A DNA stretch of 63,842 nucleotides, the filler included, from Nanobdellota archaeon (GTDB lineage: Archaea > Nanobdellota > Nanobdellia > B33-G15): NCBI GenBank assembly GCA_003660925.1. It is 3 parts of 3 records of this genome, joined end to end, with 100 filler letters (N's around TTAATTAATTAA, not from the genome) between each part and the next. Parts side by side here need not be neighbours in the genome. Positions count along the whole stretch, not along the records: positions 49,689 to 63,842 come from QMVD01000012.1; 2 more parts are not named here. One strand, given 5' to 3'. Positions 1,272 to 62,643 of this stretch are shown one piece after another; position 1 is the stretch's first letter, and each line of letters begins with the position of its first letter. The position numbers and the translations under genes are program-made. The notes under the pieces are model-generated. The model saw nothing but the letters and a program-made list of their open reading frames with translations. It ran no database searches and had not been told where the DNA came from.

Positions 1272-1274
1272 GCA

Positions 1275-1778: not shown

Positions 1779-1784
1779 TGAGAG

Positions 1785-2330: not shown

Positions 2331-2331
2331 G

Positions 2332-3327: not shown

Positions 3328-3399
3328 GAAGCACCACAATTTTTAAATCGCTAAGTATAAGACATATTGAGCGCATTTAATACTTTTCGATGATGAGCC

Positions 3400-24856: not shown

Positions 24857-24956
24857 NNNNNNNNNNNNNNNNNNNNNNNNNNNNNNNNNNNNNNNNNNNN
24901 TTAATTAATTAANNNNNNNNNNNNNNNNNNNNNNNNNNNNNNNNNNNNNNNNNNNN
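24857..24956. other. Artificial contig-joining spacer
   Basis: N44 + TTAATTAATTAA (stops in all six frames) + N44. Confidence 0.97.
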
Positions 24957-49475: not shown

Positions 49476-49507
49476 AGGTAATAAACCCCCTCCGCTTAGA
49501 TTTCTTC

Positions 49508-49588
49508 ATGTTCCAACTCCTGCTGGGTGTGGTAATTGGGATGGTGCTCTCCTTTCTCCTCCTCAAGTTCCTGATCTTCCCCTACTGG
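49508..49588 (+). CDS. 5' fragment of a membrane protein, cut by the spacer
   Basis: MFQLLLGVVIGMVLSFLLLKFLIFPYW... Confidence 0.5.
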
Positions 49589-49688
49589 NNNNNNNNNNNN
49601 NNNNNNNNNNNNNNNNNNNNNNNNNNNNNNNNTTAATTAATTAANNNNNNNNNNNNNNNNNNNNNNNNNNNNNNNNNNNNNNNNNNNN
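49589..49688. other. Artificial contig-joining spacer
   Basis: N44 + TTAATTAATTAA + N44. Confidence 0.97.
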
Positions 49689-52600
49689 ACCCTTACCATA
49701 TGGGGAACCATCACCAACTACTTGGAGGAGCCGATAAACAACGTGACTTTGAAGGGATACAACATAACCATAAGGTCCAACCTCACATCAGATTGTCCGT
49801 CTGAAGTGTTGTCATCTGCCACCGTTAATTACACCATGATTCACGTGGATACCGGAGCACCTTTCTACTGCGCACCCATAAACGATGAAGGGAATGGTTA
49901 CTACAACTGCACCTTCAACACCTCGGACATGCCAGCTAAGTGGTACGACTTGAGGATAAATTCCTCCAAGGAATATTACATCAATGAGTCCACACTGTTC
50001 ACCAACTCCTTCTTCATAGAGACAGAACCGGAACTGAGCAATGTCAAGGTGGACCCAGAGAGCATGAGTGCTGGTTACTCCTATCCGTGGCAGTTCAACG
50101 TGACGGTCTATGATGAGGATAATGATACGGTCACGGTTTACTTCTGGCTGAAAAAAGAAGGGGACACTTGGACCTCCCCTGCTGACTCGAAGACCGTGAA
50201 AGGAGCGAACAACGAGACCGTGTCATTTACTTACACCTTCTCCTGCTCTGACATTGGGAACTGGAACTTCAAGTTCACCGCAGAGGACGATCCCAACTCC
50301 CCGTTGTTGGGCGGAAATAAGTACAATGACTCCACCATCGTCTACAACATAACTGTGGAGAGGAATCCTATAGAGATAATCCTCATAGAAGGAAATAATA
50401 GTCACGTGAACAGAATAGGTTCTGAATCACAGGATTATAAAGTGCAGATAAGGGATGCGGCCACCCAAGAGTTAGTGAGTGGGGTCACAGCGTACTTGTA
50501 CATGACCAAGAACCACACGGATTTCGAGCAAATCGATTTCAAGATAACTGATACTGGTGGATATGCAAACTTCACCGTCGACCCCGATTGTACCTATGAG
50601 GTAGGAAAACAGCTATGGCGCGTAGTAGCGTCAGAAGGAACTTGCACCTACGGGGGTAACTCCAGTGATTACACCACCTTCATACACTCTAACTTGATAT
50701 CTGAATTGGAACAGCCTAGGGAACAAAGCTTTTTGAGAGGGGCGGATGATGTGTTCTTGAGAGGAAACGTGACAGATCTGGAGTGCGGTTACGTCACAGA
50801 TGCTACAGTTAAGTTCACGGCTTGGGATGGAAGTACGATGGAGTGCACTAATGTGAAGAATGAGTCCAATGGTTATTATAACTGCACCATCTTAGCAGCG
50901 GACACAGATACAATGGATTATGGGTGGTACAACGTCACCATGAACGCGAGCAGAGCCTATTACAACAATTATTTATATACATACAATCATTCCTTCTTCC
51001 TGGCGTCCAGACCCCTGCTCACGAGCCCCTCCGTCAGCCCAACGACAGAGGGTTGGGGAAAGGAATTCAACTTCTCGGTGGAAGTGACTGATTTGGATGG
51101 GAATTTCGTGAACGTGAGCTTCTGGTACTCCAGGAAACCCGATGGGCCGTGGATATATGGAGGGAGCAATAATTGTACTGGTTGTTCCTACACGAAGCTC
51201 ATATTCCCGAAGGGGGACTTCACTTGCGATGACATAGGAGACTGGTATTACTTCTTCAATGCCACGGACGAGTTCGGTTACACAGCAAACACTTCGGTCC
51301 AAAGTCTGACCATCCAAAAAGATGACGTGGAGGTGCTTTATGTCGACTACTATCCGCTGACCGTGGACAGGGATGGGCCTTACAACCTCACTACCATAAC
51401 TAAGGTGAGAGATCTGGACAGGAGCCAGAGGTATGGATATGACGTGTACGTGGAGGAGAACGTCTCGGGTAAGTTGTGGGTTACCACAGACGGGAGCACT
51501 TGGGACTCTGGGACCAACATAATCACCAACGCTTCCGGTTACTTCGTTGCCCTCTTCGACCCCGTCTGCGGGTACGATGTCGGACAACAATATTGGAAGT
51601 CAGGAGTGTTCAACGATACTTGTTACAAGGACGCCAACATCTCCATTTCCTACCCATTCAACATAAGGGGGCAGCTGAAGATCAACTTGACCTATCCAGA
51701 GTTTAATCAAACGATTCCGGTAGGGCAGTTAGTCAACTTTTCCTTCGATGTGTTCACTGACTGTCCCCAGGATGGCTTCATCTCTGGAGCGACCACGAGC
51801 CTTGACCTAACCGCACCAGACGGCACTAGTGAGTCCCATGATGGAGTTGATATAGGAAACGGAACCTACTACTACGAGTGGAACACCTCAAAGAAGCAAG
51901 GAGGCTACTGGAACATAACAGTGAACGCGAGTTACACATCTGATTGGAATTCCAACTCCACCCTATACGTCAACTGGATATATTTGAAGAACACGCCCCC
52001 GAACATAACCTACATGAACTTCACGCCCACCGAAGCCGGATGGGGAGATGTGTTCACTTATGAAGTAGGAGTAAATGACTTGCAGAACGATAATGTCACT
52101 TGCACGCTCTTCGTCTCTAAAGACAACTCGACGTGGGTGCCGAAAGGGAATGACACCGTGATAAATGGTGTGGGGACCTGTCAGGTGAATGTGACAGACT
52201 TCACTTGTGATTGGATAGGAGCCACTTACTTCATGTGGCAGATAGATGACGGGACGCTGGAGAACCTCTTCAACACCACTGGAGAGTATGGTCCGAACTT
52301 GACGGCAGATGTGATAACCATCTTCCACATCTCAGGAGATGGCCTTCCCGTGAACAGGTCTGGTACCTCTTACACGACCTTGAAGGTGAGGATTTACGAC
52401 AACTCCTCCGATTCCTACGTGCCAGCGGACGTGAATGCTTCCTTCTGGGTGACCACGAACCAGAGCAACTGGGGACCTGGAAACTTTACCCAGACGGATG
52501 ACGATGGGTACCTCACTTACTACTTCGACCCCGGCTGTACTCCACTCTATGAAAAGGGACTCCAGTGGTGGAAAGTAAACGTGAGCGATGCTTGTTACCA

Positions 52601-55600
52601 GAACATCAATTCCGATAATTTCACGCTCTATATCATAGCGGACCTCGTCAATTCCATAACCCAACCTAACGGAGAGGACTACCTCAGAGGATCGTCGATA
52701 CCTTTGAGAGGTCATGTGACAGACGACTGTGACCAAGCAGTTGAGGACGCCGACGTGCACTTCAACGTGACCAATGAAAATGGTCAAGAGTTCTCCTGTA
52801 GCCCAACAGTTAACTATGGGCTCGGGGACTACGGTTGTGATTGGGACTCCACGGGAAAGCCGGCCAGGTGGTACAATATCACCATGTTTTCCAATGGGAC
52901 TAACATGAATCCTTCCCTTGTGATAGGAGAGGATAAGTTCTTCATAGAGACGAAACCAGAATTGTTTAATCACAGTGTGAGTCCCGAAGAAGGGGGTTGG
53001 GGAGAGTTATTTAACTTCACGGTCATCCTTGACGACGAAGACCTAGATAATGTCACTGTTAGGGTTTGGATAAGGGAACAAGGTTCTTCGTCTTGGACGA
53101 AGGCCAATGAGACTTATGTGGTTGCCCCAGTGAATGAGACCATTTCCTTGACCTACAGAGGGTTTGATGGCTCCGACATAGGGGTTTGGGAATTTTACTT
53201 CGAGGCCATAGACAACAGGAGTTACACCAACACCACTTCTGTCAAACAATTCAACGTGACTAAAGATGAAGTCGTATTTGAGATGATCTCAGGGGATGGC
53301 TCTGAAGTTTGGAGGGATATACCTTCAAATTATACCACTCTTAAGGTTAGAGTGTATGACGTGGACAAAGAGGAATACCTACCCTCTTCCCAGAACATTT
53401 ACTTCTGGGTCACCAAGGACGGCAGTACTTGGGACTCTGGGACCTTGAAGGTCACGGATTCGGACGGTTATGCCGCGTTCAACTTCACTCCAACCTGTGA
53501 CTATGAGGTCATGCAGCAAAAGTGGAAGGCAGGGACTCTTGGAAACCCCTACTACGAAGACACTAACTCTACTAACTACACCTTACACATCTGGTCTCAC
53601 TTTAGGCCCTACATCCTAGAACCAGACAACATATCCATCTTAAGTGGGAATGATTTGTTCATAAGGGCCAACTTGACGGATAATTGTGGTGGAGTGGAGA
53701 ATCCCGACTCGATCACCATAGCGGTAGAGAAAGGGACATACACCTCTTATTGTACGCCCATAAACGAGGAAGGAGGGGGATTCTACAACTGTACTTGGTC
53801 CACTTCTGGAAGGTCTTTGAGGTGGTGGAACATAACCCTCTCCGCATCAAAATCCCACTACGTGGACAACTCCACCCTTAAGGAAAACGCGTTCTTCATA
53901 GCCACCAAACCCGAGTTGAGCAACCCGAGCGTGGACCCCACGCTTGGAGGGTGGGGGGAGAACTTCCACTTCGTAGTTTACCTCACGGACAGGGATTATA
54001 CCCCAGTCAATGTGAGCCTGTGGAAGAGGAAGTATGGAGAGACCGAGTGGACCTACTTGGACTCTCAGATTTCCTCTGGGGTGAGCATAGAGGTGCCATT
54101 CGACTTGAGCTTCCTCTGTTCGGATATAGGTGTGAACGAGTACAAGTTCAACGCCACTGATAGTTGCGAGACGTCGGACGGTTGTGGTTACACCAACGAG
54201 TCCATAATCCTGAACTTCACCATTGAAAAGGACAATGTGACGTTGACCAAGACTTATGGAGATGGGGCAACGGTCACCAGAGGGACATCCCAAAAGTTCG
54301 AAGTGAGGATATACGATGCGGATATAGGGGATTACGTGGGAGGGGACGTGAATTGCTCTTTCTGGATAACGGAAGACGGGACGAACTATTCGGTCGTACT
54401 GAACACGACCTCTAACACAGATGGTTACTGTGCCGTCTTCTACACCCCCGACTGTAACACCTCGGTTGGACCTCAAAAGTGGGTGGGAGGGGTCTTCAAC
54501 GATGAATGTTATGATTCGGAGAACAGCACGGAAGGGAGCTGGACAGCCCTCGGGAGCTTGAAGGTCACTATCCTGAGCCCAGCGAATGAGACCTCGGTAG
54601 GTAAGTGGCAAACTCTGTGGTTCAACTCAACGGTCAACGATTCCTTGTGCGATTACTACGTGAACGATGGGAGCGTGACGTGGTACAATGAATCTGATGA
54701 CGTCCTCGCTACTGGTTACAACACCACTTGGACAGTGCCAGGAGATTACAAGACAGGGCCCACTTACATAAGAGCCTATGCTTCTAGGCAGTACTACAAC
54801 CCCGGGACGAGCGAAGAGATAACCTTGTACATATACAGTTGGAGCTACGTGGGAGAGATGGAACCCCCCAATGGCTCGACCTATTTAGCGGGAGACATAG
54901 TCCCCGTGAGTTGTATGGTGAGGGACGCCTCCTCGGGACAAGGGATCTACAACTACGAGGTGAAGTTCTACAAGGACGGCGTGTGGCAATTCACGGATTA
55001 CACCGATGAAACGGGCAAGGCTTCATGGGCATGGGACACTTCCGACGAGAGCGCTGGTTATTACAACATCTCATGTAACATAACTGATGATGATGCTAAG
55101 TACTACTTCGCCTCCGAGAACAACACGAATTTCACCATTGTGAGGATAAAGAGACCCCTTATCCTGACGGACATCATCGTGGAACCGAGCACTATTTACA
55201 GGAACGATTCCTTCGCGCCCTATCAGGCCAATATCACTGTGCACGTGAACGATGCCAATGTGGGAGACGCTGAGAATGCGACCGTCTGGTTCTACAACCA
55301 GTCCGGATACCTCTTCGATAATTGCACCACTAATGCCACTGGTTGGTGCACCGGCATTTACAACCCTCAGGACGACATCCTCCCAGGGGTCTACACGATC
55401 TACATAAATGCCACTAAGTCCGGACAAGATCCATCTTCCACGAATACAACCCAAGTGACCGTGAAAGGAAAGATATTCATTACCATCACGAGCCCCGAAG
55501 AGAACTCAACCTGGTCCAAAGAGGACACCATACCTTTAACGGCCCAAGTTAAGGATGAGAACAACCAACAGGTCTCTGCCACGGTTGAATGGTTCGACCA

Positions 55601-58600
55601 GTTCAACCAGAAGATCGCTGAGGGCGTGAGCACCACCTGGAATCCTAAAGATGCCATCCCGGGGTATCAGAACATATCCGCGAAGGCCACGAGGACTTAT
55701 TATGATACGGGAGAAGATGTGATCTGGATAACCATAAACTCCATCGCAGACGTCTATATGTATGAGCCCATTGATGGGAACGTTTATCCATATCCTGACA
55801 ACATAACCATAAGGTGCAAGGTGGAGGACTCCTATTCATTTGAGGGAATCGCCAATTACACGGTTGATATCTGGTACAACAGGACGCCTACGGAGATCTA
55901 TCACATAGTCACCTTGAATACCTCAGCGGATGGATTCGTACAATACAACTGGACACCAGATGATAAGGGAAACACCACCTTTATGTGTAACATCACAGAT
56001 GACCCAGCGAAATATTATGAGGCAGGTAAGAAGGAAGATTCGGTTATGGTATGGGTGAAGGACACGAGGCCACCTTGGTTCGAGGACCCGTTGATCACGC
56101 CGAATCAGAGCATAGAGGCGAACAAGGACCAAGTTAAGATAAACGTCACGGTCTGGGACAATTATGGCATCCAAGAGGTCAAGGCGATTATCGGGCTACC
56201 GAATGGCAGTTTTGAGAACCTCACCATGGGATACCTGGGGACGTGGCCCAACAAGACGGGAGCTTATCAAGTGTTCTATGCACCCTACATGGACGGAGAA
56301 CACAATGTCACCATATGGGCGATGGACAGGGCGCCAGAAAATAACACGAACACGACCTTCGCCGGTTACTTCTACGTGTGGGGAAAAACCTATGGAAAGG
56401 TGACTCAACTAAGTTACATAGAAGTACCCAACATAACCCAGGAGGATAGTTTCTCCTTCGACCTCGTGATCAATTTCACCAACATAGGATTCATCACCGC
56501 CTACAACACGGTACTGAACGTCACGGAGAGCACGGGCTACGTGGTTTTCAATACCACCACTCGGAATTGCGGGGACGTGGGAGTAAATGAGAGCTGTGTT
56601 TGGCCCGTCAGGGTGACGGTCCTAGAAGGTACCCCACACATGTTGATAGAAGTCTACGGGTACGCGAAATGGGATAACGCGGATGGGACAACCGGAATAA
56701 CTTATAACATAACCAGGATAAACGTGGCATCCAATCCCGAGATCAGGATAAGGACACCACTAGATCTGACCATATGGCACGGGAATTCCACGACTCAAGC
56801 CATAATCGTGGAATCCTACGGAAACGACTACGTCAAGGACATAAACTTACTCGTGGAGGGAGGGAACCTTTCGGTGGGTTGTCCTGGTTGCACCGTGGAC
56901 TTCGATCCAGAGGTCTGGGGAGTGTTGGATGCTGGCAAGAACTTCACCTCCTTGGTCACCATAAACATCCCCTATGGTCAGGCCCCAGGCTTCTACTGGA
57001 CTTACACCGCTGCCAACACGAGCAACGCGGGTGTCAACTACCAGTGGTTGAACATAACGATCCCGGTTGACATGAACTGGACCATAAGCCCGACGGACTT
57101 TGGGACAGTTCTATTACCAGTTAACACCTCCGGGAGGCTAGGACAGCTGAATCTGACCAACGTCGGGAACGTCAAGATGTGGTATCACGTCTATAGGAGC
57201 GAGAATGGCTCCCAATTCGTGTCAGAGATAAAGCCCGATTACCTCTCCGCTGAACCGACCGCCTCGAGGCTGATAAACCTGAGTTACATAGCTCCAATAG
57301 ACGCGACGAGAGGCATGTACCTCTTGGAGATAAGGGTGGAAGAGAACAGCACCTTCGCCACGAAGACGGCATATATGTGGCTGAACGTTTCCAACCCCCC
57401 ACCCACCATACAGAATTTCACCTTGAGCTCCCACTTCATAGAGAACGGGTATGAGAACCTCACCATAAGCGCGAACGTCACGGACAACTTAGCAGTGAGC
57501 TTAGTCTGGACTAACATAACCGATCCGGATAATTACACCATTCAGACCTTCCTGAACGGGACGAACGATATATACACTCAAACATTCTCACCGAATAAAA
57601 CGGGCAACTATACCATCCTTCTCTGCGCCAACGACACGGAGAATGTGGTGGGTTGCGTCTCCGACATCTTCGAAGTGGTGGACGTCACCAACATAACCAT
57701 CATCTCCTACTCTGATACGGTCATAACTGGCGTCACCGCTTATGAGAGCAGGAACGCTACAGTGCTGTTCACCATAAACAACACAGGACACGCTAGAGGG
57801 TTCTACGTGAACGTGACCTTTGGGTTACCTGAGAACTGGACCGCCACTCCAGACGTATTCTACTACGGGACAGTCCTGAGAGGAACCTCTATAAGCAACA
57901 CGACAGTGATAACCGTCCCAGCAGGAACCTCTGACGGTAACTACACGGTGAACTTGACGGTCACTTGGACCAACATAAATGGAAGTGTTTGGAACGACAC
58001 GACGACCATAATCTTTGAGATAAAACCATATCCCATCCTCGAGATATATGAAGACGTGATAAACGTGTTCGCAAATGGCCTCACGGTCAATCAGACTTTC
58101 CACATAAACTCGACTGGGAGTGAGCCCCTGAACAATATAACCTTCACCTGCCTCACTGGAGATGTCTGTAACTTCTCCCCCGCGTTCTATCCTTCACTCA
58201 TTCCTCAGCTCAACGTGACGGAGAGCATGGAAGTTAACCTGAGCGTGAGCCCAACACCTCATCATCCCATAGGGACGGTCACGGGATATATAGAAGCGAG
58301 GTCCGCAGAAGACGCATACGATGTGGCCTTGGTTAATGTTACTGTGGCTCCTAACTGGGAACACAACACCTCGTGGATGTATAAGAAAGTAGCACAAGGA
58401 AACAGCGGTACAGTGGGGTGGGTCACAGTAAACAACACCGGGGCACCCGACCTGGTCCTTTTAGTGAACACTTCTGAATACTTGAGTTCTGATGTGAGCT
58501 CCTTGTTCATTCCCTACAATGGAACGGGCCAGGTCGAGGTGCTCTATCATGCTCCTGAAACTACCGTCAGGGCAAACCACACCCAATACCTCTTCACCTT

Positions 58601-61600
58601 CAACTCCTCAGGAATGCCTCAGCAGAAGAACACGACCGTGATACTCGAAGTGGTTCCCTTAATAGTCAACATAACCTCTCCCACGGAGAACAACCCGCTG
58701 GTTAACGTCTCCTCTGGAGATCTCATATACTTCTACGTAAAGGTCCAGTACGGGACGAACGACATAACGGATGCAGCGGATATCAATTTCCACGTCAGAA
58801 TAGGGAACAGGTGGCTCAGTGAGGATGAGTACTTGGGAGCCAGTTACTCCTCGGGGAGGTGGAGGCTGGTCATCTCGGCCCCCACTATGAAGGAAAACAA
58901 AGGATATGACATAGAGGTGAAAGTGGACTACTTGCCAGACAATGTGACGAAGTCCGATGTGGAGGGGAAGGCAGTTCTTTACAAAGATACAGTTCCTCCT
59001 GTCGTAAAGGCCCTTGCGATACCCGACAAACTCACCTCTGGCCAAAGCGTCTTAATCCAAGCCAACATAACTGAAGAGGGGGCGGTGAAAGAGGCCAGGG
59101 TGAGCATAACGAGGCCAGACGGCTCCGAGCTATCCAACCTCCTCATGAATTACGTCGGGAGGGAAGGGGACGTTTACTACTACGAATATTATTTGGACGG
59201 AAGCTGGGTAAACCAAAATGGCTCCTACGTGGCGGAGATCATAGCAGAGGACTACGCTGGGATGGAAGGGGTGGGTTATGCGTACTTTGACGCCATAGAG
59301 TCAACGGTGTGGTTCGGAGGGTTCTTGGTGGACATAGAGCACAATAACCAACCAATTCCAGGTTGGGTTGACCTTTACAGGAACAAGACCAACAGCGTGA
59401 TGTATCATCTCACGACGAATGAATCCACGGGAGAATTCGGGGATTACGTGGCGGTGAGAGCCTATGACATCGATGTGAAACTCGAGGGTTACAGAGCCAT
59501 GATACTTAGGGACACCATGATAGATCAGGGATACGCGGACCCATTCATAGTCGGCTTGATAGACAAGGAATCCGTTGGTTCTGGTGCCGGAGTCGTCACA
59601 GCTTTCGCCTTCAACACCTCTCAACTCGTGTACCCGAACGCCACCATATGGTTCAACTACTCCAACCTCTCCTTAGGTGATGTCTCCCCCATCTACCTTG
59701 GCATCTACGAGTGTAGGAGATGGCTATTCGGCAACAATACGTGTAAAGAAAACGACTGGAGGAGATTAAACAGTCACATAGACTTCGCCCAAGAGATAGT
59801 GTGGGCAGACAGAGAGTTCGTGGGAGGGGCATATGCCTTAGCCCAATACGTGTGTGGTAACCAACAGTGTGAGTTGGAGTTCGCGGAGTCCGCAGCAAAT
59901 TGTCCAACGGATTGTCCCTTAGTGGGGGGAGGAGGGGCGGGTGGAGCAGGAGAGGAAGCCGCACCTGCTGAAGAGGAAGAAGAGGTAACAGTGGCACCAG
60001 CACCGGCGCCCGCGCCACCACCAGCAGGATATGTACTAGGAGGCGGAGGGGGAGGAATAACTGCTGAGACAGTCAGGCCGGCGAGCGCCTTGATATCCAA
60101 AAACTCCATAGAGTTAGAGTTAGAGATAGGTGAATATAAGATAGTGTCCCTGGACATAACCAACAACAAAGACACAGCCATGAGGGTGAACGCCTACGTA
60201 GAGGGAGACATCTGGCAGTTCATCCAGATAGCCAATCCAACCTTCTCCATCCCACCGAAGTCAGGGGCTGCCTTGAAGATGAAGTATTACACCCTACCCA
60301 CCAGCAACATAGGGATATACACGGGAGACATCGTGTTGAGGTTGGATAATGAGGAGAGAAGGGTAGCCACCACTTTGAAGGTGGTTCCCGTTAAGGAGGC
60401 CCTATTGGACGTCAAGGTGACCGTCCTGACACCCGAGGTGAGGCCAGGAGGCAAGCTCAAGTTCACCACCCAGTTGTTCAACTTGGGAAACACGAAGAGG
60501 GTTGATGTCTGGCTGAATTACACCATAAGGGAGGTAGAGACGGGGAGGATCATAAAGAGCAGCGAGGAGACTAGGGCGATAACGACCACTTTAGAGATCT
60601 CAAAAGAGGAGGAGATCCCTGAGGATGTGGAGGCGGGATTGTACGTCATTGAGGCGGTCGCCCACTACAGCGGCAAGATAGCGAGTAGCCTTGACACGTT
60701 CAAGGTGGTGATAACCTCACCGATCTTGGCCTTCCTCTACACAGCCTTCACTTCTATATGGGTCTACATAGGGATCATAGTCATCATCCTGCTGGGAAGG
60801 AACTTCTACAGGGCGTGGAAGGAGAGGAGAGAGAAAGCAGCGAGGTACGTGTTCCCTATTGACTTGGATAAGGTGCCGAAGGCTGGACCTGATACCATAT
60901 GGTTGGGAAAGATAGCTGAGAGAGATGCTAAAGCGTACTTAGAGATAAATCAGCTCATGATGCACGGCATCGCGGCAGGGGCCACCGGAGCTGGGAAGAC
61001 AGTTTCGGTCATGGTGATCGCCGAGGAGCTCCTGAAAAAAGGCATCCCAGTGATAGTCTTCGACCCAACCCTCCAGTGGACAGGATTCATAAAGCCGTGC
61101 AAGGACGAGCACATGTTGAAGAGATATCCTATGTTCGGCATGAGGAGAGAACAGGCTACTGGATTCAAGGTCAACATCATAGATGCGAGCAGCGAGGAGT
61201 TCGAGTTCGACATAAGGAAGCACTGGGACAAGCCTGAGATGACCATATTCGCCATTAACAGGTTGCCTCCAGAGAAGCTGGACGACTTCGTGAGGAAGAC
61301 CATAGATTCCATCTTCAAGCTCTCCCTCCCAGAGTCGAAGAAGTTAAAAGTCTTGATAGTGTACGACGAGGTCCACAGGTTGTTACCGAAGTATGGAGGT
61401 AAGGGAGGATATGTGGCATTGGAGAGGGGAGCGAGGGAGTTCAGGAAGTGGGGAATAGGGCTGTTCATGCTCTCTCAGGTCCTCATGGACTTCAGGGGGG
61501 CCATAAGGGCCAACATAGGGACGGAGATACAGCTGAGGACCAAGTACGAGGGAGACATAAACAGGGTGAAGCAGAAGTACGGCTCCCACTACGCTTCCCT

Positions 61601-61922
61601 GATACCCAAGTTGGAGACCGGAACCGGACTGTTCCAGAACCCAGAATATAACAACGGTAAGCCTTACTTCATCCAGTTCAGGCCACTCCTCCACGACACT
61701 TCGAGGTTGACCGACGAGGAGATAAACACCTATTACAGCATAAAGAAGAGGATAGAGGAAATAGAGGAGAGGGTAAAGAAATTAAAGGAAAAGGGAGTAG
61801 ATACTTATGACATTGAGGTCGAGCTCAACCTCGCGAAGGACAGGCTCAAGGAAGGGTCGTTCAACATGGCGACCGCTTACCTCGACTCGGTTGACACTCG
61901 CCTCAAAAAGCTAGGAGCGTGA
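49689..61922 (+). CDS. Giant surface glycoprotein fused to a cytoplasmic HerA/FtsK/VirB4-class (DUF87-like) ATPase; 5'-partial, at least 4077 aa
   Basis: Frame open from 49689 (TLTIWGTITNYLEEP); beta-sandwich repeats; TM about 60725-60795; Walker A GATGAGKT (60978-61001), VFDP, Walker B IVYDEVH, REFRKWG, LSQ, IRAN. Confidence 0.92.
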   Translation, partial: TLTIWGTITNYLEEPINNVTLKGYNITIRSNLTSDCPSEVLSSATVNYTMIHVDTGAPFYCAPINDEGNGYYNCTFNTSDMPAKWYDLRINSSKEYYINESTLFTNSFFIETEPELSNVKVDPESMSAGYSYPWQFNVTVYDEDNDTVTVYFWLKKEGDTWTSPADSKTVKGANNETVSFTYTFSCSDIGNWNFKFTAEDDPNSPLLGGNKYNDSTIVYNITVERNPIEIILIEGNNSHVNRIGSESQDYKVQIRDAATQELVSGVTAYLYMTKNHTDFEQIDFKITDTGGYANFTVDPDCTYEVGKQLWRVVASEGTCTYGGNSSDYTTFIHSNLISELEQPREQSFLRGADDVFLRGNVTDLECGYVTDATVKFTAWDGSTMECTNVKNESNGYYNCTILAADTDTMDYGWYNVTMNASRAYYNNYLYTYNHSFFLASRPLLTSPSVSPTTEGWGKEFNFSVEVTDLDGNFVNVSFWYSRKPDGPWIYGGSNNCTGCSYTKLIFPKGDFTCDDIGDWYYFFNATDEFGYTANTSVQSLTIQKDDVEVLYVDYYPLTVDRDGPYNLTTITKVRDLDRSQRYGYDVYVEENVSGKLWVTTDGSTWDSGTNIITNASGYFVALFDPVCGYDVGQQYWKSGVFNDTCYKDANISISYPFNIRGQLKINLTYPEFNQTIPVGQLVNFSFDVFTDCPQDGFISGATTSLDLTAPDGTSESHDGVDIGNGTYYYEWNTSKKQGGYWNITVNASYTSDWNSNSTLYVNWIYLKNTPPNITYMNFTPTEAGWGDVFTYEVGVNDLQNDNVTCTLFVSKDNSTWVPKGNDTVINGVGTCQVNVTDFTCDWIGATYFMWQIDDGTLENLFNTTGEYGPNLTADVITIFHISGDGLPVNRSGTSYTTLKVRIYDNSSDSYVPADVNASFWVTTNQSNWGPGNFTQTDDDGYLTYYFDPGCTPLYEKGLQWWKVNVSDACYQNINSDNFTLYIIADLVNSITQPNGEDYLRGSSIPLRGHVTDDCDQAVEDADVHFNVTNENGQEFSCSPTVNYGLGDYGCDWDSTGKPARWYNITMFSNGTNMNPSLVIGEDKFFIETKPELFNHSVSPEEGGWGELFNFTVILDDEDLDNVTVRVWIREQGSSSWTKANETYVVAPVNETISLTYRGFDGSDIGVWEFYFEAIDNRSYTNTTSVKQFNVTKDEVVFEMISGDGSEVWRDIPSNYTTLKVRVYDVDKEEYLPSSQNIYFWVTKDGSTWDSGTLKVTDSDGYAAFNFTPTCDYEVMQQKWKAGTLGNPYYEDTNSTNYTLHIWSHFRPYILEPDNISILSGNDLFIRANLTDNCGGVENPDSITIAVEKGTYTSYCTPINEEGGGFYNCTWSTSGRSLRWWNITLSASKSHYVDNSTLKENAFFIATKPELSNPSVDPTLGGWGENFHFVVYLTDRDYTPVNVSLWKRKYGETEWTYLDSQISSGVSIEVPFDLSFLCSDIGVNEYKFNATDSCETSDGCGYTNESIILNFTIEKDNVTLTKTYGDGATVTRGTSQKFEVRIYDADIGDYVGGDVNCSFWITEDGTNYSVVLNTTSNTDGYCAVFYTPDCNTSVGPQKWVGGVFNDECYDSENSTEGSWTALGSLKVTILSPANETSVGKWQTLWFNSTVNDSLCDYYVNDGSVTWYNESDDVLATGYNTTWTVPGDYKTGPTYIRAYASRQYYNPGTSEEITLYIYSWSYVGEMEPPNGSTYLAGDIVPVSCMVRDASSGQGIYNYEVKFYKDGVWQFTDYTDETGKASWAWDTSDESAGYYNISCNITDDDAKYYFASENNTNFTIVRIKRPLILTDIIVEPSTIYRNDSFAPYQANITVHVNDANVGDAENATVWFYNQSGYLFDNCTTNATGWCTGIYNPQDDILPGVYTIYINATKSGQDPSSTNTTQVTVKGKIFITITSPEENSTWSKEDTIPLTAQVKDENNQQVSATVEWFDQFNQKIAEGVSTTWNPKDAIPGYQNISAKATRTYYDTGEDVIWITINSIADVYMYEPIDGNVYPYPDNITIRCKVEDSYSFEGIANYTVDIWYNRTPTEIYHIVTLNTSADGFVQYNWTPDDKGNTTFMCNITDDPAKYYEAGKKEDSVMVWVKDTRPPWFEDPLITPNQSIEANKDQVKINVTVWDNYGIQEVKAIIGLPNGSFENLTMGYLGTWPNKTGAYQVFYAPYMDGEHNVTIWAMDRAPENNTNTTFAGYFYVWGKTYGKVTQLSYIEVPNITQEDSFSFDLVINFTNIGFITAYNTVLNVTESTGYVVFNTTTRNCGDVGVNESCVWPVRVTVLEGTPHMLIEVYGYAKWDNADGTTGITYNITRINVASNPEIRIRTPLDLTIWHGNSTTQAIIVESYGNDYVKDINLLVEGGNLSVGCPGCTVDFDPEVWGVLDAGKNFTSLVTINIPYGQAPGFYWTYTAANTSNAGVNYQWLNITIPVDMNWTISPTDFGTVLLPVNTSGRLGQLNLTNVGNVKMWYHVYRSENGSQFVSEIKPDYLSAEPTASRLINLSYIAPIDATRGMYLLEIRVEENSTFATKTAYMWLNVSNPPPTIQNFTLSSHFIENGYENLTISANVTDNLAVSLVWTNITDPDNYTIQTFLNGTNDIYTQTFSPNKTGNYTILLCANDTENVVGCVSDIFEVVDVTNITIISYSDTVITGVTAYESRNATVLFTINNTGHARGFYVNVTFGLPENWTATPDVFYYGTVLRGTSISNTTVITVPAGTSDGNYTVNLTVTWTNINGSVWNDTTTIIFEIKPYPILEIYEDVINVFANGLTVNQTFHINSTGSEPLNNITFTCLTGDVCNFSPAFYPSLIPQLNVTESMEVNLSVSPTPHHPIGTVTGYIEARSAEDAYDVALVNVTVAPNWEHNTSWMYKKVAQGNSGTVGWVTVNNTGAPDLVLLVNTSEYLSSDVSSLFIPYNGTGQVEVLYHAPETTVRANHTQYLFTFNSSGMPQQKNTTVILEVVPLIVNITSPTENNPLVNVSSGDLIYFYVKVQYGTNDITDAADINFHVRIGNRWLSEDEYLGASYSSGRWRLVISAPTMKENKGYDIEVKVDYLPDNVTKSDVEGKAVLYKDTVPPVVKALAIPDKLTSGQSVLIQANITEEGAVKEARVSITRPDGSELSNLLMNYVGREGDVYYYEYYLDGSWVNQNGSYVAEIIAEDYAGMEGVGYAYFDAIESTVWFGGFLVDIEHNNQPIPGWVDLYRNKTNSVMYHLTTNESTGEFGDYVAVRAYDIDVKLEGYRAMILRDTMIDQGYADPFIVGLIDKESVGSGAGVVTAFAFNTSQLVYPNATIWFNYSNLSLGDVSPIYLGIYECRRWLFGNNTCKENDWRRLNSHIDFAQEIVWADREFVGGAYALAQYVCGNQQCELEFAESAANCPTDCPLVGGGGAGGAGEEAAPAEEEEEVTVAPAPAPAPPPAGYVLGGGGGGITAETVRPASALISKNSIELELEIGEYKIVSLDITNNKDTAMRVNAYVEGDIWQFIQIANPTFSIPPKSGAALKMKYYTLPTSNIGIYTGDIVLRLDNEERRVATTLKVVPVKEALLDVKVTVLTPEVRPGGKLKFTTQLFNLGNTKRVDVWLNYTIREVETGRIIKSSEETRAITTTLEISKEEEIPEDVEAGLYVIEAVAHYSGKIASSLDTFKVVITSPILAFLYTAFTSIWVYIGIIVIILLGRNFYRAWKERREKAARYVFPIDLDKVPKAGPDTIWLGKIAERDAKAYLEINQLMMHGIAAGATGAGKTVSVMVIAEELLKKGIPVIVFDPTLQWTGFIKPCKDEHMLKRYPMFGMRREQATGFKVNIIDASSEEFEFDIRKHWDKPEMTIFAINRLPPEKLDDFVRKTIDSIFKLSLPESKKLKVLIVYDEVHRLLPKYGGKGGYVALERGAREFRKWGIGLFMLSQVLMDFRGAIRANIGTEIQLRTKYEGDINRVKQKYGSHYASLIPKLETGTGLFQNPEYNNGKPYFIQFRPLLHDTSRLTDEEINTYYSIKKRIEEIEERVKKLKEKGVDTYDIEVELNLAKDRLKEGSFNMATAYLDSVDTRLKKLGA
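50010..54560 (+). repeat. Five diverged protein-level repeat units of about 320-330 aa
   Basis: Units begin near 50010, 50994, 51978, 52938, 53892; FF..T.P.L..P.V.P..GWG..F.F / VR.YD.D / FWVT.DG..W / GYYNCTW.T motifs recur. Confidence 0.85.
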
Positions 61923-61926
61923 TGAA

Positions 61927-62640
61927 ATGAACCTCAAATCCCTGGCGGAAAAGGCGAAGGGTTTGTTCAAAAAGAAGGAAGAGGAAGGGGTTGAAGTGAA
62001 AAAGAAACCGGAAGAGCTCCTCACTGAAATCAAGAAATACGAGGAGAAAATAGCTAAGAGGGAGGAAAAGACGCCTCCCGCGATGGGTGAGTTGAGGGAG
62101 GAAGTGGAGACCGGGACCATCTCGGAAAAAAGTTATGAGGAGGTCTTGAAGGCGTTGGGGTTGAAAAAAGAACCTGTGTCTCCTGAACACAAAGAGGAGA
62201 AACCCGAGGTTAAGCCAGAAGCAAAACCGGAAGTAAAGCCGGGAGTCAAACCTGAGGAAAAGCCCGAGGTGAAGGAAGAGAAGCCCGAGGAGGCCAAACC
62301 AGAGGTTGAAAAGAAGCCCGAGGAGAAGCCAGAAGAGCCAAAGCCCGAAGCGAAGCCAGAAGTCAAAGAAGAAGAACTACCCGAACCGGAGAAGGGAGTG
62401 GAGATAAAGCCAAAAGTAGAGAAGTTGGAAGAGCCAAAAAAAGAGGAAAGAATCAGGGAGGAAGAGAAAGAGGAGGAGCCAAAGGACAAGCTGGACGTGG
62501 TGATCTCCCTCTTGACCGAGATAAGGGACCTCCTCAAGACCAAACGAACCAAGAAGGCTAAGAAAACGAAGAAGAAGGTCAAGAAGAAAGCTAAGAAAAA
62601 GCAGAAGAAAAAGGCGAAGAAGAAAGGGCGCGGAAAATAA
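61927..62640 (+). CDS. Highly charged protein with KPE(V/A/E) repeats and a Lys-rich tail
   Basis: GTISEKSYEE; KPEVKPEAKPEVKPGVKPEEKPEV; LLTEIRDLL; KKAKKTKKKVKKKAKK. Confidence 0.8.
   Translation: MNLKSLAEKAKGLFKKKEEEGVEVKKKPEELLTEIKKYEEKIAKREEKTPPAMGELREEVETGTISEKSYEEVLKALGLKKEPVSPEHKEEKPEVKPEAKPEVKPGVKPEEKPEVKEEKPEEAKPEVEKKPEEKPEEPKPEAKPEVKEEELPEPEKGVEIKPKVEKLEEPKKEERIREEEKEEEPKDKLDVVISLLTEIRDLLKTKRTKKAKKTKKKVKKKAKKKQKKKAKKKGRGK
62200..62367 (+). repeat. KPEx tetrapeptide low-complexity repeat
   Basis: About ten KP-E/G-x units with synonymous codon variation. Confidence 0.75.
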
Positions 62641-62643
62641 CCC

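What the first reader, a model, noticed from the sequence alone, without database searches (positions are those of the whole stretch)
49689..61922. Giant (>4000 aa) surface protein fused through one TM to a HerA/FtsK/VirB4-type ATPase: candidate contact-and-translocation machine
Seen: one ORF with about 3670 aa of extracellular beta-rich, sequon-dense, Cys-paired modules, then a single TM (about 60725-60795). The cytoplasmic part has intact Walker A (GATGAGKT), Walker B (IVYDEVH), arginine-finger-type REFRKWG, sensor SQ and a terminal coiled coil. Known: HerA/FtsK-superfamily ATPases (VirB4, VirD4/TraD, FtsK, CedB) are hexameric DNA or protein pumps, normally separate from adhesins. Inference: ATPase oligomerisation would bundle several giant stalks into a long energised appendage crossing the S-layer. 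It could attach to a host and move macromolecules or exert force. I know of no characterised protein with this architecture.
Basis: partly seen in the sequence, partly recalled or inferred. Interest (0 to 1): 0.92.

Follow-up and report, generated by a model that had tools for sequence, protein, structure and literature searches.

The report
SPEARE-type giant surface protein with ATPase
This is the rear 4,077 residues of an enormous sugar-coated surface protein of a tiny symbiotic (DPANN) archaeon, anchored by one membrane helix to an internal ring-type motor ATPase; the design is real and widespread, but it has already been described in salt-loving relatives as "SPEARE" proteins.

Summary
Window 49689-61922 (+) is one stop-free frame of 4,077 aa with a sequon-dense, Cys-bearing ectodomain, one TM helix (aa 3677-3705) and a cytoplasmic P-loop ATPase with intact Walker A and B motifs plus a C-terminal helical tail.

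The frame is cut at a contig edge. The N run before it is an artificial scaffold linker, so the upstream genes in the window are not neighbours.

The fusion is not chimeric:
- a near-identical 2,539-aa copy spans the junction;
- a 4.7-kb contig from another study also spans it;
- hundreds of DPANN homologues share the layout.

The ATPase lies in the HerA/VirB4 branch of the FtsK-HerA superfamily. It is not an orthologue of HerA, VirB4, FtsK or TraD.

The architecture is in print: SPEARE proteins (Hamm 2019) and the 9,409-aa SVXNc_0300 (Reva 2023). Both papers leave the function hypothetical, so this is a new member of a known kind, in a Jingweiarchaeum-like lineage.

New here:
- a coiled-coil gene (d2) conserved downstream in 15 of 17 related loci;
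- three more giant-ORF fragments in the same MAG (12,498 aa with this one);
- a complete 12,055-aa ORF in a relative.

Host adhesion combined with an ATP-driven polymer pump remains inference.

The parts
49589..49688 (.). Artificial scaffold linker (N run, TTAATTAATTAA, N run). It is not part of the gene and marks where contig C12 begins.
   Evidence: A second identical linker lies at 24857-24956.
49689..61922 (+). Giant ORF, 5'-truncated at the contig edge. 4,077 aa are held; the stop codon is at 61920-61922.
   Evidence: It is collinear with residues 7945-12054 of a 12,055-aa ORF in relative G015 (47% identity over 3,451 columns; 66% over the last 620).
49689..54608 (+). About five tandem super-modules of ~320 aa (aa 1-1640) with Ig-like character, six recurrent Cys columns and many sequons.
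   Evidence: self-BLAST shifts of ~320/640/966/1290 aa at 25-41% identity; module alignment; Atlas look-alikes carry Big_7/Big_3_5/MG domains.
54543..56018 (+). A second repeat pair of ~305 aa (aa 1619-1792 against 1924-2110), with Big_1 and Big_7 hits.
57756..57971 (+). NPCBM_assoc/NEW3 beta-sandwich domain (aa 2690-2761).
   Evidence: Pfam 3e-9, above cut-off. The same family is precomputed for most homologues.
59901..60068 (+). Low-complexity Gly/Ala/Glu/Pro linker (aa ~3405-3460) after a Cys-rich stretch. Its length varies between strains.
   Evidence: sequence. An independent contig carries a net +9 nt at 59935-59984 with the frame kept.
60069..60716 (+). Conserved membrane-proximal ectodomain (aa 3461-3676). 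Its last beta-hairpin belongs to the conserved core.
   Evidence: 66% identity to the relative over the last 620 aa. Strands E11-21 and E24-34 of the AF2 model. Conserved columns before the TM helix in A1.
60717..60803 (+). Single transmembrane helix (aa 3677-3705), followed by a basic juxtamembrane helix (RAWKERREKAARY). Orientation is N-out, C-in.
   Evidence: hydropathy; AF2 helices 39-79; sequons only on the N-terminal side.
60894..61679 (+). RecA-like ATPase core of the HerA/VirB4 branch (aa 3736-3997). Walker A 60978-61001, Walker B 61356-61376, REFRKWG 61434-61454, SQ 61473-61478.
   Evidence: Pfam DUF87 and HerA_C in 21 of 21 aligned members. PDB profile hit to HerA 4d2i at 7.9e-11. 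Foldseek top hit 4d2i at 6.7e-12. VIA Z 24.9 for HerA and 22.9 for VirB4. Motifs invariant in A1.
61713..61919 (+). C-terminal three-helix tail, possibly coiled coil (aa 4009-4077).
   Evidence: AF2 helices 370-395, 401-415 and 419-437 at pLDDT ~90. 78% identical to the relative over the last 174 aa.
61927..62640 (+). d1: a 237-aa highly charged protein with KPE-type repeats and a polybasic C-terminal tail. It starts 5 nt after the giant ORF's stop.
   Evidence: Homologues at 47% and 40% identity at the same place in the two same-family genomes. The polybasic tail is present in 4 of 5 positional counterparts. No family hit.
62644..63840 (+). d2: an all-helical coiled-coil protein with the conserved ERIGE[IL]R...P.KL motif. 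399 aa are held; by comparison with homologues about 24 aa are missing at the contig end.
   Evidence: homologue directly downstream in 8 of 9 loci and 7 of 8 loci. Alignment A2 has invariant E133, E140, R146 and P175. AF2 model is all helices.

Best explanation
What it is. This is the C-terminal 4,077 residues of a SPEARE-type giant cell-surface protein of a small-genome DPANN archaeon. Its closest named relatives come from Candidatus Jingweiarchaeum tengchongense.

Anatomy (shown):
- A very long chain of Ig-like modules that is heavily N-glycosylated, probably disulfide-bonded, and variable between lineages.
- A conserved core: a membrane-proximal beta-sandwich, one TM helix, a HerA/VirB4-branch P-loop ATPase and a helical tail.
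- This core recurs across DPANN lineages, attached to ectodomains from a few hundred to about 12,000 residues.
- It is followed by a conserved cytoplasmic coiled-coil gene (d2) and, in close relatives, a polybasic-tailed gene (d1).

Mechanism (inferred):
- The variable stalk reaches through the symbiont's envelope and binds the host cell surface.
- The ATPase domains assemble, like every solved relative, into a ring. Its N-terminal TM helices hold the ring flat against the inner face of the membrane, with the pore axis perpendicular to it. FtsK/SpoIIIE and coupling proteins have the same geometry.
- The ring uses ATP to thread a polymer across or along the membrane at the contact site. DNA is the most likely polymer and polypeptide is the alternative.
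- d2 and d1 would act as cytoplasmic accessory subunits.

Confidence. About 0.9 that it belongs to the SPEARE-like family with this topology. About 0.35 that it works as a ring translocase coupled to host contact.
For: Real, single gene:
- No stops in 4,077 aa.
- A 2,539-aa near-identical copy from another assembly spans ectodomain, TM helix and ATPase.
- A 4,681-nt contig of run X3 (another study, ~93% identical) covers 57478-62149 with the frame kept. A 592-nt contig of X5 bridges the TM helix to Walker A.

Family:
- Among proteins of 2,242-7,135 aa, 243 of 1,822 scored candidates match the C-terminal 438 aa at E<=1e-3. Named hits are from Aenigm-, Micr-, Woese-, Pace-, Nano- and Parvarchaeota.
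- Among shorter proteins, 970 of 8,000 scored candidates match, including complete forms of ~720-730 aa.
- Among 1.84 billion cluster representatives, 422 match at E<=1e-30. In the best 150, 140 have more than 150 aa N-terminal to the module and 70 are 2,000 aa or longer.
- The C-terminal region is 48% identical to a Nanohaloarchaeota protein over TM helix, ATPase and tail.
- The Pfam ResIII hit (2e-5) lies over Walker A to Walker B. Hamm 2019 labelled the conserved cytoplasmic SPEARE region as type III restriction-enzyme-like.

Topology and glycosylation: sequon and Cys asymmetry across the TM helix.

ATPase class:
- PDB profile hits to HerA only, at 1e-7 to 8e-11.
- Foldseek top hits are HerA.
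- VIA Z scores: HerA 24.9 (rmsd 3.4, 255 aligned), DndH-C 23.5, VirB4 22.9 (rmsd 2.7, 234 aligned), TrwB 19.1, FtsK 17.5.
- Catalytic motifs are invariant in 21 of 21 aligned sequences.
- The cytoplasmic part is more conserved than the stalk: 64-78% against 33-55% identity to the relative in 300-aa windows.

Partners: a d2 homologue lies directly downstream in 15 of 17 loci.

Published context: SPEARE protein detected by proteomics; cytoplasmic bridges reported between a nanohaloarchaeon and its host (passage in PMC11001535).
Against: - No experiment bears on this protein.
- Ring assembly, substrate and direction of transport are all inferred from homology.
- One TM helix per protomer gives only six helices per ring. 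That is few for a DNA- or protein-conducting pore, and no conserved polytopic membrane partner lies in the 1.9 kb downstream.
- No nuclease, DNA-binding domain or other T4SS component was detected in the ORF or its two neighbours.
- Direct homology to the named SPEARE proteins (NAR1_1133, AOV94740.1, SVXNc_0300) could not be tested, because their sequences were out of reach.
- No Laminin_G hit was found in this ORF or in the three other fragments. Hamm 2019 reports at least one in every SPEARE ectodomain.
- The downstream gene is not a VirB4-family ATPase, unlike the nanohaloarchaeal loci of Reva 2023.
- Strong matches occur in only 8 of 41 same-class genomes, so the protein is accessory rather than universal.
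Confidence: 0.6

Rival explanations
1. Secretion 'straw' (the proposal of Reva et al. 2023). The giant protein is part of a type-IV-secretion-like apparatus. The Ig-like stalk binds the host and the VirB4-like ATPase powers export of effector proteins into the host.
For: The fold match to VirB4 (4ag6, Z 22.9) is within 2 Z units of HerA. There are weak Pfam hits to T4SS-DNA_transf in 18 of 21 aligned members and to TrwB_AAD_bind in 9 of 21. The proposal and the neighbouring VirB4-family gene in nanohaloarchaea are described in PMC10266531 section 11.
Against: No CagE_TrbE_VirB domain and no other T4SS component was found in the ORF or in the two downstream genes here. The downstream genes are charged coiled-coil proteins without TM helices. 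Sequence profiles hit HerA only among solved structures at E<=1, besides FtsK at 0.17. The contig ends 1.9 kb downstream, so more distant genes are unseen. In the same-family relatives the next genes are a ~300-aa protein with no Pfam match and housekeeping genes.
Confidence: 0.2
2. Energised adhesin without transport. ATP-dependent ring assembly clusters six stalks, or couples them through the helical tail and d2 to a cytoplasmic scaffold. This tunes avidity or tension, or holds the symbiont on the host. Nothing crosses the membrane.
For: There is a single TM helix per protomer and no conserved channel partner. A cytoplasmic coiled-coil neighbour (d2) and a helical tail are conserved. The core recurs on ectodomains of any length, including ~720-aa forms.
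Against: Every solved relative listed in the fold searches is a polymer translocase or a secretion/assembly ATPase. No binding between the ATPase and d2 has been shown. The top fold hits of d2 (CdvA filament, E 0.42) are not significant.
Confidence: 0.2
3. Envelope or defence role unrelated to a host. It is a giant S-layer-like coat protein, or a surface sensor whose HerA-type ATPase acts as in HerA-based anti-virus systems.
For: PADLOC HerA models give the best defence-library hits (6.8e-14, partial). Solved anti-phage HerA complexes are among the top fold matches. Distribution among relatives is patchy and some genomes hold several copies, for example three places in G015.
Against: No effector partner (Sir2, DUF4297, NurA-like nuclease) lies next to it. 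The named hits are overwhelmingly DPANN lineages, whose cultivated members are all host-attached according to the abstract of 10.1101/2023.02.24.529834 (search listing). A genome of about 0.67 Mb spends at least 12 kb, and perhaps 37 kb, on it.
Confidence: 0.08
4. Assembly artefact: the ectodomain and the ATPase are joined by mis-assembly, or the frame is a pseudogene.
For: The ORF touches a contig edge in a 77-contig MAG, and the window itself is an artificial concatenation of contigs.
Against: The junction lies 11 kb inside the contig. It is present in a second assembly, in contigs of two other studies and in hundreds of homologues. There are no stops in 12.2 kb.
Confidence: 0.01

Closest known systems
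SPEARE proteins of Nanohaloarchaeota (Ca. Nanohaloarchaeum antarcticus NAR1_1133, 5,998 aa; Ca. Nanopetramus SG9, up to 8,553 aa), Hamm et al. 2019, PMC6642349
   Same: A very long extracytoplasmic N-terminal part with adhesion-type domains. A single TM helix near the C terminus. A conserved cytoplasmic region that scores as ResIII/P-loop. The 717-aa 'mini' form parallels the ~720-730-aa forms found here. Homologues are reported in other DPANN phyla.
   Different: No serine-protease, laminin-G or toxin-like domain was detected here. The ectodomain is instead built from ~320-aa Ig-like super-modules dense in sequons. The authors read the cytoplasmic domain as a restriction enzyme, whereas here it is a HerA/VirB4-branch ATPase with no nuclease. 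They reported no homologues in Nanoarchaeota or Parvarchaeota, but named hits here include both. Their SI Fig. S17 and Table S3 were not seen. Direct alignment to their proteins was not possible.
Giant proteins SVXNc_0300 (9,409 aa) and BNXNv_0298 (8,880 aa) of cultivated nanohaloarchaea, Reva et al. 2023, PMC10266531
   Same: The described order is identical: signal peptide, Ig-like repeats, TM helix, cytoplasmic FtsK-HerA-superfamily ATPase, then a C-terminal coiled coil. The proposed role is also the same: host binding plus ATP-driven transfer.
   Different: There the next gene is a VirB4-family ATPase. Here, and in 15 of 17 related loci, it is a coiled-coil protein, d2, preceded in close relatives by d1. 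The ATPase was called VirB4/TraG-like, but sequence profiles here favour HerA and structure cannot separate HerA from VirB4. This lineage is not halophilic; the DNA occurs in runs labelled as hydrothermal vent, sediment and seawater metagenomes.
HerA (archaeal HerA-NurA end-resection translocase; PDB 4d2i, 9x1m) and bacterial anti-phage HerA
   Same: The best sequence and fold matches are to these. They share the RecA-like core with DUF87/HerA_C signatures and all solved forms are ring assemblies.
   Different: A TM helix and a giant ectodomain replace the N-terminal part of HerA. No Pfam family other than the ATPase-type ones was listed over the segment between the TM helix and Walker A. There is no NurA, Sir2 or DUF4297 neighbour. 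NCBIfam HerA models score 29-32 bits against cut-offs of 800-970. The genome has a separate soluble DUF87 protein on contig C19.
Membrane-anchored DNA pumps and coupling proteins: FtsK/SpoIIIE, TrwB/TraD/VirD4, TcpA
   Same: A ring ATPase of the same superfamily is tethered to the membrane by N-terminal TM helices, so the pore faces the membrane. This geometry motivates the translocase reading (fold matches at Z 16.8-19.1).
   Different: The similarity is lower than to HerA or VirB4. The Pfam FtsK_SpoIIIE and T4SS-DNA_transf hits fall below their cut-offs. There is one TM helix rather than two to five (the numbers for those families are recalled, not from a call). None of these carries a giant ectodomain.

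Membership tests
SPEARE-like giant DPANN surface proteins | Most of the length is extracytoplasmic, with adhesion-type repeats | tested here: met
   3,676 aa lie before the TM helix, with Ig-like/NEW3 Pfam hits, ~320-aa tandem modules and 185 sequons.
SPEARE-like giant DPANN surface proteins | A single TM helix near the C terminus, with the C-terminal region cytoplasmic | tested here: met
   One hydrophobic segment at aa 3677-3705. Basic residues follow it, and sequons and Cys lie only on the N-terminal side.
SPEARE-like giant DPANN surface proteins | Conserved cytoplasmic P-loop domain (called 'type III restriction' by Hamm 2019 and 'VirB4/TraG-like ATPase' by Reva 2023) | tested here: met
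   Pfam ResIII at 2e-5 above cut-off, plus DUF87 and HerA_C. 48% identity over 456 columns to a Nanohaloarchaeota protein, P0230.
SPEARE-like giant DPANN surface proteins | C-terminal coiled coil after the ATPase (Reva 2023) | tested here: met
   AF2 helices 370-437 of the C-terminal model at pLDDT ~90. These columns are conserved in A1.
SPEARE-like giant DPANN surface proteins | Direct sequence homology to the named proteins (NAR1_1133, AOV94740.1, SVXNc_0300) | not testable with these tools
   Their sequences could not be fetched. The link rests on P0230 and on the shared architecture.
SPEARE-like giant DPANN surface proteins | At least one laminin-G domain in the ectodomain (Hamm 2019) | tested here: not met
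   No Laminin_G family was found at E<=0.01 in the 4,077 aa or at E<=0.001 in the three other fragments. The gene is incomplete. Several homologues do carry PF02210/PF13385.
SPEARE-like giant DPANN surface proteins | VirB4-family ATPase gene immediately downstream (nanohaloarchaeal loci, Reva 2023) | tested here: not met
   The downstream genes are d1 and d2, charged coiled-coil proteins without a P-loop family hit. The contig ends inside d2.
HerA (HerA-NurA repair translocase) | RecA-like core with DUF87/HerA_C signature and a HerA-like fold | tested here: met
   (Z 24.9, rmsd 3.4, 255 residues aligned to 4d2i).
HerA (HerA-NurA repair translocase) | Orthology by curated full-length models | tested here: not met
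   NCBIfam HerA_Thermprot scores 32.2 bits against a cut-off of 800. helicase_HerA scores 28.6 against 970. HerA_antiphage scores 20.6 against 800.
HerA (HerA-NurA repair translocase) | Soluble protein with an N-terminal barrel domain and a NurA (or other nuclease) neighbour | tested here: not met
   The N-terminal side is a TM helix plus a giant ectodomain. The neighbours are d1 and d2. That the barrel domain defines HerA is recalled, not from a call.
VirB4 / type IV secretion ATPase | VirB4-like fold of the ATPase domain | tested here: inconclusive
   4ag6 gives Z 22.9 (rmsd 2.7, 234 aligned), within 2 Z units of HerA. No VirB4 chain appeared among PDB profile hits at E<=1.
VirB4 / type IV secretion ATPase | N-terminal CagE_TrbE_VirB domain and T4SS partner genes | tested here: not met
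   No PF03135 hit in the ORF. No T4SS family in d1 or d2. Only 1.9 kb downstream is available.
FtsK/SpoIIIE | FtsK_SpoIIIE motor-domain signature | tested here: not met
   PF01580 scores 16.6 bits against a cut-off of 24. FtsK scores E 0.17 in the PDB profile search and Z 17.5.
Type IV coupling proteins (TraD/VirD4/TrwB) | T4SS-DNA_transf / TrwB signature | tested here: not met
   PF02534 scores 19.5 bits against a cut-off of 20.1. TIGR SXT_TraD scores 20.9 against 366. TrwB gives Z 19.1.
Ced DNA-import system ATPase | Match to the curated model | tested here: not met
   NCBIfam NF053655 'CedD' is the best NCBIfam hit, but it scores 33.1 bits against a cut-off of 600 and covers only aa 100-160 around Walker A.

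The most novel reading that the evidence does not exclude
The conserved core (membrane-proximal beta-sandwich, one TM helix, HerA/VirB4-branch ring ATPase and helical tail), together with the DPANN-specific coiled-coil protein d2 and the polybasic d1, forms a previously unrecognised contact-dependent import machine. It would be shared by most DPANN phyla and unrelated in composition to T4SS or Ced. The machine would sit at the base of a single polypeptide stalk of ~10,000-12,000 residues, larger than the 9,409-aa protein that Reva 2023 calls the largest in a cultivated archaeon. It would pump host DNA or other polymers into the symbiont.
Probability: 0.15. Interest if true: 0.85.

Novelty: new member of a known kind. 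Interest (0 to 1): 0.45.

Why it matters
DPANN archaea have tiny genomes and depend on host cells, and how they hold on to the host and draw material from it is an open question. This MAG is 0.67 Mb and 88.5% complete. It spends at least 12 kb, and possibly 37 kb (5.6% of the assembly), on this kind of protein. The motor end is far better conserved than the stalk.

The SPEARE layout is therefore not a nanohaloarchaeal oddity. It is one conserved core that recurs across DPANN, with 422 clusters at 50% identity scoring E<=1e-30. That core has a conserved cytoplasmic coiled-coil partner.

This gives experimenters a compact, soluble target: the ~370-aa cytoplasmic domain together with d1 and d2. 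It is suitable for ATPase, oligomerisation, DNA-binding and cryo-EM work, and the stalk would not need to be expressed. It also corrects the domain labels in print ('restriction endonuclease', 'VirB4/TraG').

Tried and rejected
Complex prediction. Complex prediction of the cytoplasmic domain (A1 residues 85-438) with d2 (A2 residues 100-399) scored 0.00 in both runs. The tool's verdict was 'no answer', so no conclusion is drawn either way.

Identity of d2. All of these gave nothing specific:
- Pfam, NCBIfam, PADLOC and PHROGs;
- a PDB profile search, which returned only generic coiled coils;
- Foldseek on its AF2 model, with no match at E<=0.001 and CdvA filament on top at E 0.42;
- the ESM Atlas, which returned only unnamed DPANN clusters.

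Ectodomain fold. phmmer of one super-module and of the membrane-proximal 676 aa against PDB sequences found nothing at E<0.1.

Missing 5' end. No suffix-prefix overlap of 12 nt or more was found among C12, C13, C27 and C65 or any other contig end. The metagenome scan with a 41-nt pattern returned only the window's own contig. Whether C27, C13, C65 and C12 are one gene therefore stays open. C65, C13 (aa 200-1277) and C27 (aa 1583-2631) are three paralogous copies of one block at 46-49% identity. This fits either tandem blocks within one gene or several genes.

Reaching the named SPEARE proteins. Repeating it with P0230 as query covered only 3,729-5,000 aa and returned no nanohaloarchaeal name.

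Expression. No RNA holder is listed among the 11 runs that hold the stretch or part of it.

Fold absences. Neither VirB4 nor TrwB appeared among PDB sequence-profile hits at E<=1. This absence is not evidence against kinship.

Literature searches that found nothing on target:
- DPANN + DUF87: 0 papers;
- DPANN + FtsK + 'surface protein' + transmembrane: 0 papers;
- DPANN + HerA + giant: 5 papers, judged off-topic from titles and abstracts only;
- the Jingweiarchaeum paper PMC10134863: 0 occurrences of giant, 'large protein', HerA, DUF853, 'surface protein' or adhesi-.

Third gene. The ~300-aa gene after d2 is probably synteny only. It is conserved in 6 of 8 close loci, in 0 of 9 distant loci, and is absent from this assembly.

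Full report
1. What is in the window

The window is not one piece of DNA. Two N...TTAATTAATTAA...N linkers, at 24857-24956 and 49589-49688, join three contigs of a MAG of 77 contigs and 671,958 bp. C2 is 1-24856, C3 is 24957-49588 and C12 is 49689-63842.

The MAG is rated 88.5% complete with 0.79% contamination. The giant ORF therefore begins at the first base of contig C12. Its 5' end is missing, and the methyltransferase and radical-SAM genes upstream in the window are not its neighbours.

From 49689 the frame runs 4,077 codons without a stop, to the stop codon at 61920-61922.

2. Checking the observation

- One hydrophobic segment only, at aa 3677-3705 (nt 60717-60803).
- GATGAGKT at aa 3764, IVYDEVH at aa 3890, REFRKWG at aa 3916 and LSQV at aa 3928.
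- Three terminal helices in the AF2 model (mean pLDDT 85.1, pTM 0.76).

The two sides of the TM helix differ sharply.
- The ectodomain has 185 N-X-S/T sequons. Shuffling gives 51.6 +/- 6.2, with a maximum of 69 in 500 trials.
- That is 5.03 sequons per 100 aa, against 0.43 in other six-frame ORFs of 200 aa or more in this genome.
- The ectodomain has 55 Cys. The cytoplasmic 372 aa have no sequons and one Cys.

This fits an N-out, C-in topology with heavy N-glycosylation and extracellular disulfides. That would fit, but I did not test it.

Residues 1-1640 are about five tandem super-modules of ~320 aa, 25-41% identical to one another. They share six recurrent Cys columns. A second repeat pair follows (aa 1619-2110).

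Pfam recognises Big_7, Big_1 (below cut-off) and NPCBM_assoc/NEW3. Atlas look-alikes are archaeal proteins with Ig-like Big_7, Big_3_5 or MG domains. The ectodomain fold itself was not predicted.

3. The fusion is real

Three independent lines exclude a chimeric join.
- A 2,539-aa protein (P0002) on a 20,246-nt contig differs at only a few residues and runs through ectodomain, TM helix and ATPase.
- Logan contigs of other studies cover the junction. Run X3 has one 4,681-nt contig over 57478-62149 with 309 differing letters. Its indels cancel or add 9 nt within the Gly/Ala/Glu/Pro linker, so the frame is kept. Run X5 has a 592-nt contig over 60677-61268.
- The same layout recurs widely: 243 of 1,822 scored candidates among proteins of 2,242-7,135 aa; 970 of 8,000 among shorter proteins; and 2,853, 711 and 422 cluster representatives at E<=1e-3, 1e-10 and 1e-30 in an exhaustive profile search.

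In the best 150 representatives:
- 140 have more than 150 aa before the module;
- 70 are 2,000 aa or longer and 20 are 4,000 aa or longer;
- 78 end within 25 aa of the module, and 63 carry a further C-terminal extension of 100 aa or more.

Named hits are almost all DPANN: Aenigm-, Micr-, Woese-, Pace-, Nano-, Parv- and Nanohaloarchaeota. A few are labelled Thermococcus, Thor- or Heimdallarchaeia MAGs.

4. Which ATPase

A profile of 21 C-terminal regions (A1) hits only HerA-type chains in the PDB at E<1e-6. The best is 4d2i at 7.9e-11, and FtsK scores 0.17.

Foldseek puts Sulfolobus HerA first, followed by anti-phage HerA complexes and then TcpA and FtsK. VIA-align scores:

| Structure | Z |
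|---|---|
| HerA 4d2i | 24.9 |
| Thermococcus HerA | 24.4 |
| Anti-phage HerA | 23.7 |
| DndH-C | 23.5 |
| VirB4 4ag6 | 22.9 |
| TrwB | 19.1 |
| FtsK | 17.5 |
| EssC/EccC | ~16 |

DUF87 and HerA_C match 21 of 21 members. FtsK_SpoIIIE, T4SS-DNA_transf and TrwB_AAD_bind match only weakly. All curated NCBIfam models (CedD, HerA, TraD, TraC) fall far below their cut-offs.

So the domain belongs to the HerA/VirB4 branch of the superfamily but is an orthologue of none of the named enzymes. Its own signature is invariant in A1: VFDPT.QWTGF, DE[VI]HRLLPK, ER..REFRKWG, SQV..DF, E.Q.RTKY.GD and RPL.H.

The ResIII hit (2e-5) lies over Walker A to Walker B. This is presumably the basis of the 'restriction endonuclease' label in Hamm 2019. 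I found no nuclease domain.

5. It is already described

Hamm et al. 2019 (PMC6642349; passages read) named the SPEARE proteins of Nanohaloarchaeota.
- They are up to 8,553 aa and mostly extracytoplasmic, with a TM helix near the C terminus and a conserved cytoplasmic region.
- A 717-aa version exists.
[quoted passage not shown] Reva et al. 2023 (PMC10266531; section 11 read in full) re-analysed them and the 9,409-aa SVXNc_0300.
- The order they describe is Sec signal, ~75 Ig-like domains, TM helix, 'VirB4/TraG-like' ATPase and C-terminal coiled coil.
- A VirB4-family gene lies downstream.
- They proposed secretion 'straws'.

Later papers repeat these ideas (passages in PMC11001535 and 10.1101/2025.05.02.651781).

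The C-terminal 438 aa here are 48% identical to a Nanohaloarchaeota protein over TM helix, ATPase and tail. I could not fetch the named SPEARE sequences, so that last link is indirect.

My searches found no paper that:
- joins DPANN with DUF87;
- describes this protein in Jingweiarchaeales or Parvarchaeales.

No paper I read mentions d2, but I ran no search for it. The SI of Hamm 2019 was not seen and may list more lineages.

6. Lineage and size

The closest full-length relative in the protein database is P0003. It is 6,495 aa, is named Candidatus Jingweiarchaeum tengchongense or 'Parvarchaeota', and is 70% identical in the C-terminal region.

In genome G015, of the same class, an uninterrupted ORF of 12,055 codons lies well inside a 95-kb contig (C3:5724-41891, minus strand; no N; 666 sequons). 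P0003 appears to be its C-terminal part, because the BLAST statistics are identical.

Our C12 protein aligns collinearly to residues 7945-12054 of that ORF. Identity is 47% over 3,451 columns and 66% over the last 620. In 300-aa windows it ranges from 33% to 78% and is highest at the cytoplasmic end.

The MAG holds three more fragments made of the same modules.
- C27: bases 578-8509, 2,644 aa, with a hydrophobic N-terminal signal-like start. It lies downstream of a ParA/MinD-like gene.
- C13: the whole contig is one open frame of 4,696 aa.
- C65: the whole contig is one open frame of 1,081 aa.

C13 aligns collinearly to residues 2171-6937 of the G015 ORF at 44% identity over 4,831 columns. That ends about 1,000 residues before the point where C12 begins to align. 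C13 and C12 are therefore probably one gene of about 9,800 aa or more.

Adding C27 and C65 would give 12,498 aa, or 37.5 kb, which is 5.6% of the assembly. However, C65, C13 (aa 200-1277) and C27 (aa 1583-2631) are 46-49% identical copies of the same block. They may be tandem blocks in one gene or parts of paralogous genes. Contig ends do not overlap, so this remains open.

Strong matches to the core occur in 8 of 41 same-class genomes, counting G000 itself, with up to three places in one genome. The family is accessory and expandable.

7. Conserved neighbours

Five bases after the stop begins d1 (61927-62640). It is a 237-aa charged protein with KPE-type repeats and a polybasic tail.

Next comes d2 (62644-63840, 3' open). 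It has a low-complexity N terminus followed by about 300 aa of long helices.

A d2 homologue lies immediately downstream of the giant gene in:
- 8 of 9 loci from species-representative genomes of Micr-, Woese- and Altiarchaeales and unnamed archaea (L007 lacks it);
- 7 of 8 loci from same-class relatives (the G017 locus, L038, lacks it).

The alignment shows invariant E133, E140, R146 and P175 in an ERIGE[IL]R...P.KL motif.

d1 is recognisable by sequence only in the two same-family genomes. Small charged proteins of 189-224 aa occupy its place in three more loci, and 4 of 5 counterparts end in a polybasic tail.

A third gene of ~300 aa follows in 6 of 8 close loci but in 0 of 9 distant ones, and it is missing from this assembly. 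I treat it as synteny.

No family, fold or Atlas search names d2 (see Tried and rejected).

8. How it most likely works

Shown:
- the topology;
- the glycosylation-type sequon bias;
- an intact and strongly conserved HerA/VirB4-branch ATPase directly behind one TM helix;
- a hypervariable stalk on a constant core;
- a conserved cytoplasmic coiled-coil neighbour.

Inferred:
- The stalk is the host-binding, lineage-specific part.
- The ATPase forms a ring like its solved relatives. The N-terminal TM helices hold the ring with its pore facing the membrane.
- The ring moves a polymer at the contact site. I favour DNA, because the nearest enzymes (HerA, DndH, FtsK, TrwB) act on DNA and because d1's polybasic tail would suit nucleic acid. 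This is weak evidence.

Against a self-sufficient channel: six TM helices per ring are few, and no polytopic partner is conserved nearby.

Alternatives:
- effector export (Reva's 'straw');
- an envelope or defence role.

9. Verdict

This is a new member of a known but mechanistically uncharacterised kind. The useful additions are:
- a corrected ATPase classification;
- the breadth of the family;
- the conserved d2 partner;
- evidence that versions of about 12,000 residues exist, and probably include this one.

Noticed in passing
window 24857-24956 and 49589-49688: The window is three contigs (C2, C3, C12) glued with N...TTAATTAATTAA...N linkers. Gene neighbourhoods across these points are artificial.
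   Followed up: yes
G015:C3:5724-41891 (loci L047 + L048), minus strand: A same-class relative has an uninterrupted 12,055-codon ORF of this family, with no N and 666 sequons, inside a 95-kb contig. That is longer than the 9,409-aa protein called the largest of cultivated archaea in PMC10266531. The first 65 codons look like a small winged-helix protein, so the true start may be the Met at codon 67.
   Followed up: partly
G000 contigs C27 (L044: 578-8509 +), C13 (L043: 2-14089 +), C65 (L045: 3-3245 -): Three more giant-ORF fragments made of the same modules (2,644, 4,696 and 1,081 aa). C27 carries the N-terminal signal-like start. Each of the three holds a 46-49% identical copy of one ~1,100-aa block.
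   Followed up: partly
window 62644-63840 and alignment A2: d2 defines a DPANN-wide family of coiled-coil proteins with the motif ERIGE[IL]R...P.KL. It is always found just downstream of the giant ATPase gene and has no name in any library searched.
   Followed up: partly
L034:3243-8381 (+) and L008:12874-18789 (+): In two loci a second large NEW3-bearing surface protein (1,712 and 1,971 aa) follows d2. Its C-terminal ~80 aa resemble the C-terminal part of d2. In L034 a ParA/MinD-like gene follows, and in this MAG a ParA/MinD-like gene precedes the C27 giant ORF.
   Followed up: no
L035-L041, about 250-300 nt after d2 (e.g. L039:4081-4989 +): A conserved ~292-315-aa protein without a Pfam match lies downstream in 6 of 8 close relatives. 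It is not found in 9 distant loci or in this assembly.
   Followed up: partly
G000:C19:7370-8677 (L042:3370-4677 +): A second, soluble DUF87/HerA_C protein (435 aa) in the same genome. It is preceded by a 282-aa protein with no Pfam match and sits next to a CWB2-domain protein.
   Followed up: partly
window 59935-59984: The Gly/Ala/Glu/Pro linker before the membrane-proximal domains differs by a net +9 nt in a ~93% identical strain from another study. It is a length-variable hinge.
   Followed up: no
window 49500-49588 (end of contig C3): An ATG followed by a strongly hydrophobic 27-codon stretch runs off the end of contig C3. It looks like the start of a membrane or secreted protein. It is not connected to the giant ORF by any evidence.
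   Followed up: no
window 44695-46044 (+): A 449-aa protein with weak Ig_VWA7/DUF11-type hits (below cut-offs), possibly another surface protein on contig C3.
   Followed up: no
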